Below, piece after piece: positions 40,568-51,111 of a stretch of DNA of 64,000 bases. The notes below the pieces were generated by a model, which did not search any database, was not told the DNA's origin, and worked only from the letters and a program-made list of their open reading frames with translations. Every line of letters begins with the position of its first letter. Position 1 is the first letter of the stretch. Source of the DNA: Escherichia phage vB_EcoM_ASO1A; sequence record MZ726791.1; one strand, 5' to 3'. The position numbers and the translations under genes were made by a program.

Positions 40568-41920
40568 ATGTGGAATCCAATTGTTAATGTAGATATTACA
40601 TTGAACACCGCAGGAACTACAAGAGAAGGTTTTGGTTTGCCACTATTCTTAGCTTCAACAGATAACTTTGAAGAAAGAGTGCGTGGTTATACTTCCTTAA
40701 CTGAAGTTGCTGAAGATTTCGATGAGAATACTGCTGCATATAAGGCTGCTAAACAACTTTGGAGTCAGACTCCTAAAGTAACTCAGCTTTATATTGGTAG
40801 ACGCGCTATGCAGTACACTGTATCAATTCCTGATGAGGTTACTGAGAGCACGGACTACTCAATTACTGTAGCTGTCGGTGGGGGAATGTCACAACCATTC
40901 CAGTACACCTCACAAGGTGAAGATACTGCCGAGAATGTATTACAACAGTTTAAAACACAGATTGAAGCTGACCAATCAATTAAAGATAAAGTTTCAGTCA
41001 ATGTTACTGGTAGCAACGGTTCTGCCACAATGGTCATCTCCAAAGCTGGTGACAATGATTTCGTGAAGGTAACCACTACAGCACAAACTGTGTCTATTGC
41101 AAGCACAACTGCTGATACAGCGTCAACTGCTCTGGCAGCTATTGAAGCTTATTCTACCGACTGGTATTTCATTGCAGCAGAAGACAGAACTCAACAGTTT
41201 GTTTTGGCAATGGCTTCTGAGATTCAGGCTCGTAAGAAAATCTTCTTCACAGCTAACTCTGATGTAGCAGCACTGCAAGGTACAGAATTAAATAGTGCAA
41301 ATGATGTTCCAGCACAGCTTGCTAAGAGTATGTATACTCGCACAGTTTGCTTGTGGCATCACACAGCGGCAGAAGATTATCCAGAGATGGCATATATTGC
41401 TTATGGCGCTCCATACGATGCAGGGTCAATTGCTTGGGGTAATGCTCAGTTGACTGGTGTAGCTGCTTCTTTACAGCCAGCTAATAAGAGACCTCTGACA
41501 AGCATTCAGAAGTCAGCTTTAGATGTACGTCACTGTAACTTTATCGACCTTGATGGTGGTGTTCCAGTGGTTCGTAGAGGGATTACTTCTGGTGGGGAAT
41601 GGATTGATATCGTCCGTGGTGTTGACTGGTTAGAATCAGACCTGAAAACTTCTCTGAGAGACTTGCTAATTAACCAGAAGGGTGGTAAGATTACTTATGA
41701 TGATACTGGTATTACCCGTATTCGTCAAGTCATTGAAACCTCTCTACAAAGAGCAGTCAACAGAAACTTCCTGTCATCTTACACAGTTAATGTTCCTAAA
41801 GCCTCTCAAGTTGCTTTGGCAGACAAGAAAGCTCGTATCCTGAAAGATGTTACCTTCGCAGGTATCTTAGCAGGGGCTATCTTGGATGTTGACTTGAAAG
41901 GTACAGTGGCTTACGAATAA
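40568..41920 (+). CDS. tail sheath protein
   Basis: 450-aa ORF followed by 148-aa tube, chaperone pair and tape measure: canonical contractile-tail gene order. Confidence 0.55.
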   Translation: MWNPIVNVDITLNTAGTTREGFGLPLFLASTDNFEERVRGYTSLTEVAEDFDENTAAYKAAKQLWSQTPKVTQLYIGRRAMQYTVSIPDEVTESTDYSITVAVGGGMSQPFQYTSQGEDTAENVLQQFKTQIEADQSIKDKVSVNVTGSNGSATMVISKAGDNDFVKVTTTAQTVSIASTTADTASTALAAIEAYSTDWYFIAAEDRTQQFVLAMASEIQARKKIFFTANSDVAALQGTELNSANDVPAQLAKSMYTRTVCLWHHTAAEDYPEMAYIAYGAPYDAGSIAWGNAQLTGVAASLQPANKRPLTSIQKSALDVRHCNFIDLDGGVPVVRRGITSGGEWIDIVRGVDWLESDLKTSLRDLLINQKGGKITYDDTGITRIRQVIETSLQRAVNRNFLSSYTVNVPKASQVALADKKARILKDVTFAGILAGAILDVDLKGTVAYE

Positions 41921-41935
41921 TAGAGGTAAATTGGA

Positions 41936-42382
41936 ATGGCTATGTATCAGCAATATTCCCCTAAAGACGTTGTATGTAGCTGGAATGGTATTGCCATTGA
42001 AGGCTTTGCCCCAGACTCATTTTTACGTCTACAGAGAACATCACCACTTATCACACCAGTTGTAGGTGCAGGTGGTCAGGTTGCTCTGACAAGAAATGCA
42101 GACAAGACAGGTACTATTGAGATTGAGCTAATGCAGACTTCTCTCTCTAACCAGATGCTTTCTGCAATTCAAGCTAAACAAGACAACATGGAACTTGAAG
42201 AAGATATCTCTTCTAACTTCGTAATCTACGACCCATCAGGCTCTGTTCTGGCAACTGGTATTAATGCTTGGTTGCAGGAATTACCACAGATTGAACTTGG
42301 GCGTGACCAGAACTCTAAAACTTGGATTTTTGGTTGTGAGAAGCTAGACTATACTTCAACAATTCCAGCGTCAAGTGTTTAA
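41936..42382 (+). CDS. tail tube protein
   Basis: 148-aa ORF between sheath and chaperone genes. Confidence 0.5.
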   Translation: MAMYQQYSPKDVVCSWNGIAIEGFAPDSFLRLQRTSPLITPVVGAGGQVALTRNADKTGTIEIELMQTSLSNQMLSAIQAKQDNMELEEDISSNFVIYDPSGSVLATGINAWLQELPQIELGRDQNSKTWIFGCEKLDYTSTIPASSV

Positions 42383-42394
42383 TAAATCCTATAA

Positions 42395-42427
42395 GGGGGA
42401 GACTTTAAAAGGTCTTCCCCTTTTTTG
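42395..42427 (+). terminator. rho-independent terminator after tube gene
   Basis: GGGGAGACTTTAAAAGGTCTTCCCC hairpin followed by TTTTTTG. Confidence 0.65.
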
Positions 42428-42454
42428 TTTCTTTTAAAGTATTAAGGAATCACA

Positions 42455-42853
42455 ATGAAAACAGAATCTAGAGTAATTAATGGTAAGAAAGTAAATATCG
42501 TTCTGCTTGGGGCAAGAGATGGTATTAAGATGTCTATGAAGTTGGGTAAAATTGTTGTTCCAACCTTTGCACAGATGCTATCAAGTCTGACTGATAAAGA
42601 TAAGAAAGAAGCTCCAATGGTTCCATTTAAAGACCTTGTTGAAGCTTGTTTTGACAGAATTGAAGAAATTAACCTTGAAGAGATGGCTACCTTATTATTT
42701 CAAGGGGCAACTGTTGACGACTTCCCACTTAATATTGATACGTACTTCCAAGCAAACTACGGTGAGTTTATTGATTACTTAGCATTTGCGCTGGAGGCAA
42801 ACTTCGGAAGTTTTTTCGAAGCAAGCATTTTCAAAAGCCTAACTTCTCAGTAA
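42455..42853 (+). CDS. tail assembly chaperone (G-like)
   Basis: 132-aa ORF between tube and tape measure; slippery heptamer T-TTT-TTC at 42811-42817. Confidence 0.55.
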   Translation: MKTESRVINGKKVNIVLLGARDGIKMSMKLGKIVVPTFAQMLSSLTDKDKKEAPMVPFKDLVEACFDRIEEINLEEMATLLFQGATVDDFPLNIDTYFQANYGEFIDYLAFALEANFGSFFEASIFKSLTSQ

Positions 42854-43094
42854 ACATGGGTAACACTCTACAGACACCACTAACTGATGCTGCTGTAGAG
42901 GCAACCTATGAAGAAGCAGACGAGATGAAATTTGTGCTTGCTATTTATGGTATGGAAGGGTGTAAAGAAACACTTGACCAACTCTTTGCTATGACATTCT
43001 CTGATTTATTATCATTGAGACAATTTCTTGAGATTCAGAGGTCGTATAAAGAGGAAATTGCTTACAACGAACTTAGAAGAGCAGGAAAAATGTA

Positions 43095-43095
<1 letters not shown>
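42811..43095 (+). CDS. -1 frameshift extension of tail assembly chaperone (GT-like product)
   Basis: After a -1 slip at TTTTTTC the frame from 42817 is open through the 42856 ORF frame to stop at 43093-43095. Confidence 0.5.

Positions 43096-51111
<8,016 letters not shown>

What the first reader, a model, noticed from the sequence alone, without database searches (positions are those of the whole stretch)
42455..43095. Programmed -1 frameshift site (T TTT TTC) fusing the two tail assembly chaperone ORFs
The heptamer T-TTT-TTC at 42811-42817 lies in the zero frame of the 132-aa chaperone ORF as agT-TTT-TTC. After a -1 slip the new frame (CGA AGC AAG ...) is open and runs directly into the downstream 79-aa ORF (ATG 42856), ending at 43095 next to the tape measure start. 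This is the conserved G/GT arrangement of tailed phages between tube and tape measure genes, and gives independent support for calling 43095-45323 the tape measure.
Basis: partly seen in the sequence, partly recalled or inferred. Interest (0 to 1): 0.5.

Follow-up and report, generated by a model that had tools for sequence, protein, structure and literature searches.

The report
Tail chaperone -1 frameshift site, confirmed
This Felix O1-type phage makes a second, longer tail assembly chaperone when a small share of ribosomes slip back one base on T TTT TTC; this is a well-known phage device already annotated in close relatives, so the finding is correct but ordinary.

Summary
TTTTTTC lies at 42811-42817 in phase agT TTT TTC of the 132-aa ORF 42455-42853 (Pfam Phage_TAC_15). 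The -1 frame is open from 42775 to 43095 and its stop overlaps the tape measure ATG, giving a predicted 213-aa fusion.

The window is a Felixounavirus, 100% identical to phage vB_EcoM_ASO1B.

Comparative support is very strong:
- In-phase T TTT TTN followed by a 69-124-aa -1 extension occurs in every lineage examined: 10 GenBank lineages and 73/73 IMG/VR loci (28 clusters at 70% identity or less).
- Synonymous choices are fixed (Ser codon always T-ending, first Phe always TTT), while neighbouring synonymous sites vary freely.
- The T-run persists even where Phe becomes Leu.
- The downstream ORF generally has no start codon or SD of its own.

No 3' stimulatory structure exists in this lineage. 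An SD-like GAGG/GGAGG 13 nt upstream is conserved at synonymous level (GAG 23/26 against a 0.33 background) and may act as a dnaX-type stimulator.

The frameshift is already annotated in Salmonella phage Meda (same genus, identical site), Moogle and Mordin, and parallels P2 E/E+E' (TTTTTTG). I found no experimental proof for this family.

Verdict: real, correctly interpreted, already known.

The parts
42444..42448 (+). Shine-Dalgarno (AAGGA), 6 nt before the chaperone ATG; the single initiation site that serves both products
   Evidence: Read directly from the sequence. An RBS is annotated at the equivalent place in Moogle and Mordin.
42455..42853 (+). Zero-frame tail assembly chaperone ORF ('G'-like, 132 aa); the major product
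   Evidence: Pfam PF21822 Phage_TAC_15, E=1.2e-19, 71.6 bits (cutoff 22); phrog_1613 'tail assembly chaperone', 8.8e-49.
42793..42797 (+). SD-like GGAGG, 13 nt 5' of the heptamer; candidate dnaX-type frameshift stimulator (inferred)
   Evidence: The Glu codon that creates GAGG is GAG in 23/26 clusters, against a background of 0.41 overall and 0.33 before G-initial codons (P about 6e-9). At 40% identity or less it is 15/16. Anti-SD hybridisation peaks at -6.9 kcal/mol at offsets -21 to -17 (background -0.5). The spacing lies within the 9-14 nt reported for -1 shifts (PMC5009743). The motif is absent in phiEa21-4, P778 and CR8.
42791..42807 (+). Small local hairpin (CUGGAG-GCAAA-CUUCGG) overlapping the GGAGG and abutting the T-run; lineage-specific, role doubtful
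   Evidence: -6.5 kcal/mol, 3rd percentile of locus windows. Across 28 lineages the median is the 45th percentile, so it is not conserved.
42811..42817 (+). Slippery heptamer T TTT TTC (X XXY YYZ) where tandem tRNA-Phe slips -1
   Evidence: Phase verified. Conserved in 10 GenBank lineages, including Vequintavirinae at 28-30% aa identity, and in 73/73 IMG/VR loci. Ser wobble T in 28/28 clusters and first Phe TTT in 28/28. U_UU.U_UU.C belongs to the efficient class in E. coli (PMC4066793).
42817..43095 (+). -1 frame continuation ('T'-like domain, 92 codons plus TAA); includes the mechanically called 79-aa ORF 42856-43095
   Evidence: phrog_4963 'tail assembly chaperone', 2.8e-55. Protein-level conservation of the extension across lineages. 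No SD before ATG 42856, and no conserved start in relatives.
42455..43095 (+). Frameshift fusion product, join(42455..42817, 42817..43095), 213 aa; the minor product
   Evidence: The identical 641-nt joined CDS is annotated 'Tape measure chaperone frameshift product' in Salmonella phage Meda.
43095..45323 (+). Tape measure protein gene; its ATG overlaps the TAA of the -1 frame (TAATG)
   Evidence: phrog_4036 (score 1531.7, full length); Pfam PF20155 TMP_3, 2.3e-17.
41936..42382 (+). Tail tube-position gene immediately upstream (context)
   Evidence: phrog_280 and PF11681. It sits between the sheath gene (phrog_205, 40568-41920) and the chaperone.

Best explanation
This is a programmed -1 ribosomal frameshift of the lambda G/GT and P2 E/E+E' type.

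All ribosomes initiate at ATG 42455. Most terminate at TAA 42851-42853 and make the 132-aa chaperone. A minority slip back one base when the two tRNA-Phe occupy UUU-UUC (42812-42817) and re-pair with UUU-UUU (42811-42816). These ribosomes continue at CGA 42817 and end at TAA 43093-43095, making a 213-aa protein with the same N-terminal chaperone domain plus a 92-residue C-terminal domain.

By analogy with lambda and P2 (inferred, not shown here), the short form coats the tape measure protein. The rare long form links that complex to the tube subunit to start tail polymerisation. A fixed slip frequency sets the ratio of the two forms.

No 3' structure assists the shift in this lineage. The GGAGG 13 nt upstream probably pairs with the anti-SD of the elongating ribosome and enhances slipping, as in dnaX (inferred from conservation).
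For: Geometry is verified.

Protein identities:
- Phage_TAC_15 and phrog_1613 for the first ORF.
- phrog_4963 for the second ORF.
- TMP_3 and phrog_4036 for the next gene.

Conservation that does not depend on the motif: a tblastn survey found T TTT TTC in phase with a 92-124-aa -1 extension in Felixouna-, Susp-, Moogle- and Kolesnikvirus, Yersinia P778, Pectobacterium Wc4 and four Vequintavirinae.

IMG/VR survey:
- 73/73 loci, forming 28 clusters at 70% identity or less, carry T TTT TTN.
- The Ser codon is always AGT or TCT (background 0.33; naive P about 4e-14).
- The first Phe codon is always TTT (background 0.49; P about 2e-9).
- Spacer synonymous sites vary freely.
- In 5 clusters the second residue is Leu (TTA/TTG) but the T6 run is kept.

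Independent expression of the second ORF is unlikely. There is no SD before ATG 42856, 25/28 clusters have no SD-preceded start in the first 40 codons, and 8 have no ATG at all. phiEa21-4 and Wc4 have no CDS called in that interval. The extension is conserved as a protein.

Motif strength: U_UU.U_UU.C is in the efficient class in E. coli, gives more than 0.1% shifting without stimulators and is under-represented in E. coli genes (PMC4066793).

SD-like element; the spacing fits the 9-14 nt range.

Independent annotators reached the same reading for Meda, Moogle, Mordin and Mijalis.
Against: - I found no experimental demonstration (fusion protein, reporter assay or mutagenesis) for any Ounavirinae or Vequintavirinae phage.
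- The efficiency of the shift is unknown.
- There is no 3' stimulatory structure in this lineage (z = +1.15).
- The SD-like element is missing in some lineages that keep the heptamer (phiEa21-4, P778, CR8), so it cannot be essential.
- The IMG/VR loci were retrieved with a peptide pattern that includes [SC]F, so they test codon choice but not the universality of the motif.
- The P values ignore phylogenetic relatedness.
- The functions of the two products in a contractile-tail phage are inferred from lambda and P2.
Confidence: 0.88

Rival explanations
1. Transcriptional slippage. RNA polymerase occasionally adds an extra U on the T6 run, possibly helped by the hairpin at 42791-42807 just upstream. 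The resulting mRNAs encode the fusion by standard translation. The protein would be identical (S F F R S K...).
For: The conserved element is a homopolymer run, and 7/28 clusters carry T7. In the window's lineage a -6.5 kcal/mol hairpin followed by AAG-U6 resembles a weak terminator or pause site. U7 and A7 runs are under-represented in E. coli genes in all frames, which has been attributed partly to transcriptional slippage (PMC4066793).
Against: A T6 run is short for efficient slippage by bacterial RNA polymerase (general knowledge; programmed cases typically use runs of about 8-9 or more). The last position is mostly C (16/28 clusters) and not T, which matches the ribosomal hierarchy U_UU.C > U_UU.U but not selection for the longest run. 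The conserved GAGG at fixed spacing is a ribosome-specific signal. It persists where the hairpin cannot form (GAG in 7/9 non-Gly lineages), and the upstream region is not generally structured (median 45th percentile).
Confidence: 0.06
2. Two independent genes. The 79-aa ORF is translated on its own from ATG 42856, as most GenBank records annotate it, and the heptamer is incidental.
For: In Felixounavirus an ATG lies 3 nt after the zero-frame stop, so reinitiation is conceivable. Most public records list two separate CDSs.
Against: There is no SD upstream of 42856. The ATG is not conserved: Moogle's first in-frame ATG lies elsewhere, and phiEa21-4, Wc4, P778 and 8 IMG/VR clusters have no suitable start. 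This model also cannot explain the invariant wobble-T and TTT codon choices.
Confidence: 0.04
3. Artefact. A homopolymer sequencing error (T6 instead of T7) splits what is really one gene.
For: Homopolymer runs are prone to indel errors.
Against: The same arrangement is found in about 300 independently sequenced phage genomes and 73 metagenomic contigs. The zero-frame tail after the heptamer (EASIFKSLTSQ) is itself conserved as a protein with a conserved stop region.
Confidence: 0.01

Closest known systems
Tape measure chaperone frameshift annotated in Salmonella phage Meda (MH586731, Felixounavirus) and Citrobacter phages Moogle, Mordin and Mijalis (Mooglevirus)
   Same: These are homologous genes: 97% aa identity for Meda and about 73% for Moogle. 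The heptamer is the same. Meda's site is identical over the 91 nt compared, and its joined CDS has the same 641-nt span (PMC4319497, PMC5543628).
   Different: Nothing of substance differs. The window's own record (MZ726792), like most Felixounavirus records, lists two 'hypothetical' or 'tail assembly chaperone' CDSs without the join.
Bacteriophage P2 E / E+E' (-1 shift at TTTTTTG; Christie et al. 2002, as cited in PMC3091744)
   Same: P2 is also a contractile-tail phage. The gene pair sits between the tube and tape measure genes, the slippery site is a U6N heptamer, and there is no downstream RNA structure. The short and long products share an N-terminus.
   Different: The last base of the heptamer is C here and G in P2. 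The proteins fall in different families (Phage_TAC_15 here). Gene order is reversed in the P2 map. P2's frameshift has been shown experimentally and this one has not.
Lambda G / GT (G GGA AAG; Levin 1993; Xu, Hendrix & Duda 2004, 2013, 2014)
   Same: Same genomic logic and presumed function: chaperone plus frameshift-extended chaperone between the major tail and tape measure genes, with a fixed ratio and neither product in virions (PMC5009743).
   Different: Lambda has a non-contractile tail and a different heptamer. No sequence similarity was tested or claimed here.
E. coli dnaX -1 frameshift signal (A AAA AAG with an SD-like element 10 nt upstream and a 3' stem-loop)
   Same: An SD-like sequence lies within the 9-14 nt window 5' of a -1 heptamer. 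The sequence just 5' of it lacks competing SD-like complementarity.
   Different: There is no 3' stem-loop here. The heptamer and the biological purpose differ. The role of the SD-like element here is inferred from synonymous-site conservation only.

Membership tests
G/GT-type tail assembly chaperone programmed frameshift (Xu, Hendrix & Duda 2004) | Two overlapping ORFs located between the major tail/tube gene and the tape measure gene | tested here: met
   Tube-position gene 41936-42382, ORFs 42455-42853 and 42775/42856-43095, tape measure 43095-45323.
G/GT-type tail assembly chaperone programmed frameshift (Xu, Hendrix & Duda 2004) | [quoted passage not shown] | tested here: met
   T TTT TTC at 42811-42817, 13 codons before the zero-frame stop. 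It is the only in-phase heptamer in the overlap.
G/GT-type tail assembly chaperone programmed frameshift (Xu, Hendrix & Duda 2004) | Shift site and two-frame arrangement conserved among relatives whose sequences have diverged | tested here: met
   10 GenBank lineages and 73/73 IMG/VR loci, with synonymous-site statistics.
G/GT-type tail assembly chaperone programmed frameshift (Xu, Hendrix & Duda 2004) | Second ORF lacks its own translation initiation signals | tested here: met
   No SD before ATG 42856. Relatives have no conserved start: 25/28 clusters lack an SD-preceded start.
G/GT-type tail assembly chaperone programmed frameshift (Xu, Hendrix & Duda 2004) | Fusion protein made in vivo at a low, fixed ratio and required for tail assembly | not testable with these tools
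   Needs western blot or mass spectrometry, a reporter assay and heptamer mutants. I found no such data for Ounavirinae.
Pfam PF21822 Phage_TAC_15 (tail assembly chaperone) | Score above the curated gathering threshold | tested here: met
   71.6 bits against 22, residues 9-124 on profile positions 1-124 of 127.
dnaX-type SD-stimulated -1 frameshift signal | SD-like sequence complementary to the 16S 3' end, 9-14 nt 5' of the heptamer | tested here: met
   GGAGG at 42793-42797, 13 nt upstream. It is conserved at synonymous level in most lineages but not all.
dnaX-type SD-stimulated -1 frameshift signal | 3' stem-loop stimulator 5-9 nt downstream of the heptamer | tested here: not met
   42818-42880 folds at -3.4 kcal/mol, z = +1.15. 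The L015 cluster gives z = +0.33.
dnaX-type SD-stimulated -1 frameshift signal | Frameshift efficiency falls when the SD-like sequence is mutated | not testable with these tools
   Requires a reporter assay.
Programmed transcriptional slippage | Homopolymer run long enough for RNA polymerase realignment (typically about 8-9 or more A/T) | tested here: not met
   The run is T6 in the window and never longer than T7 in 73 loci.

The most novel reading that the evidence does not exclude
The tail-chaperone frameshift of this large myovirus clade (Ounavirinae, Vequintavirinae and many uncultivated relatives) may be tuned by a conserved upstream Shine-Dalgarno-like element (GAGG/GGAGG, 13 nt 5' of T TTT TTY) and not by any 3' structure. 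That would be a dnaX/IS-type 5' stimulator operating in a phage G/GT-type signal. Lineage-to-lineage presence or absence of the element would then set different G:GT ratios.
Probability: 0.5. Interest if true: 0.35.

Novelty: already known. Interest (0 to 1): 0.2.

Why it matters
The practical value lies in annotation. The window's own GenBank record, and most of the roughly 300 Felixounavirus records, list two separate small genes, one of which is very unlikely to be expressed on its own. The correct feature is a joined CDS with ribosomal slippage. The site also anchors the functional map of the tail module (sheath, tube, chaperones, tape measure).

The one element that may go beyond current annotation is the upstream SD-like motif, which is conserved at synonymous level. 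It offers a simple, testable handle on how the chaperone ratio is set in therapeutic Felix O1-type and rV5-type phages.

Tried and rejected
The 63 nt after the heptamer fold at -3.4 kcal/mol, z = +1.15. A hairpin around 42855-42912 begins about 38 nt downstream, too far to act on a ribosome at the heptamer, and the 120-nt fold is not significant (z = -1.16). Some distant IMG/VR lineages do show stable 3' structure (z below -2 in L062, L064 and L079), but the window's lineage does not.
- **Upstream hairpin 42791-42807 as the conserved element.** Rejected. It is not conserved across lineages, and GAGG persists without it.
- **+1 frame.** Open for only 13-52 codons in relatives and never reaches the tape measure gene.
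- **Other shift sites.** The only other XXXYYYZ in the ORF (TTTAAAG at 42626) is out of phase. A U_UU.C tetramer (aT TTC, 42829-42832) lies in the overlap but is not conserved outside Ounavirinae.
- **PDB sequence search with the chaperone profile.** No significant relatives; best E is about 0.04, to coronavirus nsp8, which is noise.
- **Functional data.** The Bas63 PhageMaP preprint has nothing on these genes in the main text and no supplements are held. A search for rV5 frameshift literature found nothing relevant.
- **Structure prediction and large protein-database searches.** Not run. The family assignment was already above curated thresholds, and a fusion sequence cannot be submitted as a window sequence.

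Full report
**Identity of the window**

The 3.5 kb around the finding is 100% identical to Escherichia phage vB_EcoM_ASO1B (MZ726792; Ounavirinae, Felixounavirus). It is 95-99% identical to about 190 other Felix O1-type phages of Escherichia, Salmonella and Shigella. Window coordinates equal record coordinates minus 243.

**Check of the observation**

- TTTTTTC lies at 42811-42817.
- Position 42811 is the third base of a codon of ORF 42455-42853, so the zero frame reads agT TTT TTC GAA (…G S F F E…).
- The -1 frame is open from 42775 to the TAA at 43093-43095 and contains ATG 42856 in frame.
- The TAA shares its last A with the ATG of the next gene (TAATG).
- A tandem -1 slip gives join(42455..42817, 42817..43095), a protein of 213 aa.
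- No other in-phase X XXY YYZ heptamer lies in the 79-nt overlap.

In a crude gene set of the whole window, in-phase heptamers occur 75 times in 18,320 codons. About 0.1 would therefore be expected by chance in an overlap of this size. Only two of the 75 lead into a -1 frame that extends 150 nt or more past the zero-frame stop. Taken on its own, the site is suggestive but not compelling.

**Gene identities**

| Coordinates | Assignment | Evidence |
|---|---|---|
| 42455-42853 (132 aa) | Tail assembly chaperone | Pfam Phage_TAC_15, 71.6 bits against cutoff 22; phrog_1613 |
| 42856-43095 (79 aa) | Tail assembly chaperone | phrog_4963; no Pfam match |
| 43095-45323 | Tape measure protein | phrog_4036; Pfam TMP_3 |
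| 40568-41920 | Tail sheath | phrog_205 |
| 41936-42382 | Tube-position gene | phrog_280; PF11681 |

The gene order is the canonical one for a contractile tail.

**Comparative evidence from GenBank lineages**

A protein-level search that does not depend on the motif (tblastn) recovers relatives down to 24-30% identity. I read the site in every distinct lineage:

- Felixounavirus
- Suspvirus (mistaenkt)
- Mooglevirus (Moogle, Mordin, ESh19)
- Kolesnikvirus (phiEa21-4)
- Yersinia phage P778
- Pectobacterium phage Wc4
- Four Vequintavirinae (A5-4, CR8, Av-05, TH18)

All of them have T TTT TTC in the same phase, followed by a 92-124-codon open -1 frame that ends at or just before the tape measure gene. 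The +1 frame is always short.

Only 7 columns are invariant in the protein alignment of nine lineages. Two of these are the Phe-Phe encoded by the heptamer.

Nucleotide similarity between the window and Erwinia phages has decayed everywhere except a 41-nt island at 42800-42840 (92.7% identity), centred on the heptamer. Here two reading frames and the signal overlap.

**Comparative evidence from IMG/VR**

A scan of IMG/VR gave 73 loci. The scan's peptide pattern fixed the amino acids [SC]F but not the codons. All 73 carry T TTT TTN in phase: 59 with C, 7 with T, 6 with A and 1 with G. The -1 extensions are 69-119 aa where the contig allows.

Reduced to 28 clusters at 70% identity or less:

| Feature | Observed | Background | Naive P |
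|---|---|---|---|
| Ser codon ends in T (AGT or TCT) | 28/28 | 0.33 | about 4e-14 |
| First Phe codon is TTT | 28/28 | 0.49 | about 2e-9 |

The neighbouring synonymous positions are scrambled (AAC 17 / AAT 11; TTC 10 / TTT 9; four Gly codons). In five clusters the second residue is Leu (TTA or TTG), yet the T6 run is kept. Selection therefore acts on the nucleotide run and not on the peptide. These P values ignore shared ancestry and should be read only as orders of magnitude.

**Is the second ORF a gene of its own?**

- In the window, ATG 42856 has no SD-like sequence upstream.
- Among the 28 clusters, only the Felixounavirus one has an ATG directly after the zero-frame stop.
- 25 clusters have no SD-preceded ATG, GTG or TTG in the first 40 codons, and 8 have no ATG at all.
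- In phiEa21-4 and Wc4, annotators found no gene in that interval.
- The extension is nonetheless conserved as a protein across very distant lineages (…L.EL…W..DD…A…LD…).

The extension is therefore translated, and translation most likely enters from the upstream ORF.

**Stimulatory elements**

- *3' side.* The 63 nt after the heptamer are unstructured (-3.4 kcal/mol, z = +1.15). A distal hairpin starts about 38 nt downstream and is not significant. Some distant relatives do have stable 3' structure. P2 also lacks a 3' structure (PMC3091744).
- *5' side.* GGAGG sits at 42793-42797, 13 nt before the heptamer. Across clusters the Glu codon that forms it is GAG in 23/26. The background GAG fraction is 0.41 overall and 0.33 for Glu followed by a G-initial codon, giving P about 6e-9. 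At 40% identity or less the count is 15/16.
- *Anti-SD profile.* Hybridisation to the anti-SD shows a sharp peak of mean -6.9 kcal/mol at offsets -21 to -17, against a background of -0.5. The flank 5' of the peak is free of SD-like complementarity. The Atkins review gives 9-14 nt as the SD-to-site spacing for -1 frameshifting (PMC5009743).
- *Hairpin confound.* In the window's lineage the GGAGG also lies in a small hairpin (42791-42807; -6.5 kcal/mol). That hairpin is not conserved, and GAG persists where it cannot form.
- *Limit.* The SD-like element is missing in phiEa21-4, P778 and CR8. It is at most an enhancer.

**Motif strength**

In E. coli the single-codon slippage hierarchy is A_AA.G, then U_UU.C, then U_UU.U. 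Heptamers of the form H_HH.U_UU.Y are among the most efficient. U_UU.U_UU.C gives more than 0.1% shifting without stimulators, is under-represented in E. coli genes and is used by IS elements (PMC4066793). The predominance of C at the last position here (16/28 clusters) matches this ribosomal hierarchy.

**Rival explanations**

- *Transcriptional slippage* on T6 would give the same protein and is not excluded. It is disfavoured by the short run, by the preference for C over T at the last position, and by the ribosome-specific SD-like signal.
- *Independent initiation* is contradicted.
- *Sequencing error* is contradicted by the same arrangement in hundreds of independent genomes.

**What is already known**

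Salmonella phage Meda belongs to the same genus. Its site is identical over the 91 nt compared, and it carries a joined CDS of the same 641 nt, annotated 'Tape measure chaperone frameshift product'. Moogle and Mordin carry joined CDSs as well. The Moogle and Mijalis genome announcements mention the frameshift and cite Xu et al. 2004 (PMC4319497, PMC5543628). Most other records, including the window's own, list two separate CDSs. I found no experimental test in this family.

**Verdict**

The feature is a textbook G/GT-type frameshift, already annotated in the same genus. The added result here is the breadth and synonymous-level strength of its conservation, plus a candidate upstream SD-like stimulator. 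Interest is low.

Noticed in passing
window 46105-46111: A second in-phase heptamer, A AAG GGG, lies 4-5 codons before the stop of ORF 45323-46120. This motif is listed among the efficient ones in E. coli by Sharma et al. 2014. Its -1 frame is the next gene, 46120-46461 (ATGA overlap), so a slip would fuse the two post-tape-measure proteins. It is absent in Moogle and P778 and present as A AAG GGT in phiEa21-4. It is probably a coincidence of the gene overlap.
   Followed up: partly
window 42393-42432: A strong rho-independent terminator-like hairpin (13 pairs, followed by TTTTTGTTT) sits between the tube-position gene and the chaperone gene. It is also annotated in ASO1B, Meda and Mordin. It would lower transcription of the chaperone, tape measure and baseplate genes relative to sheath and tube.
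   Followed up: partly
window 42800-42840: A 41-nt island is 92.7% identical to Erwinia phages (Kolesnikvirus), whose chaperone is only about 41% identical at protein level. It coincides with the heptamer and the dual-coding stretch (zero frame EASIFK, -1 frame RSKHFQKP).
   Followed up: yes
GenBank GU169904.1 (Staphylococcus phage SA1), 74360-74755: A 147-kb record labelled as a Staphylococcus phage encodes a chaperone 98.5% identical to the window's Felix O1-type protein. This looks like a mixed or chimeric assembly.
   Followed up: no
IMG/VR loci L062, L064, L079 (region 3' of the heptamer): Some distant relatives have markedly stable RNA structure within 45 nt downstream of the heptamer (z below -2), unlike the window's lineage. 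Different lineages of this family may use different stimulators.
   Followed up: no
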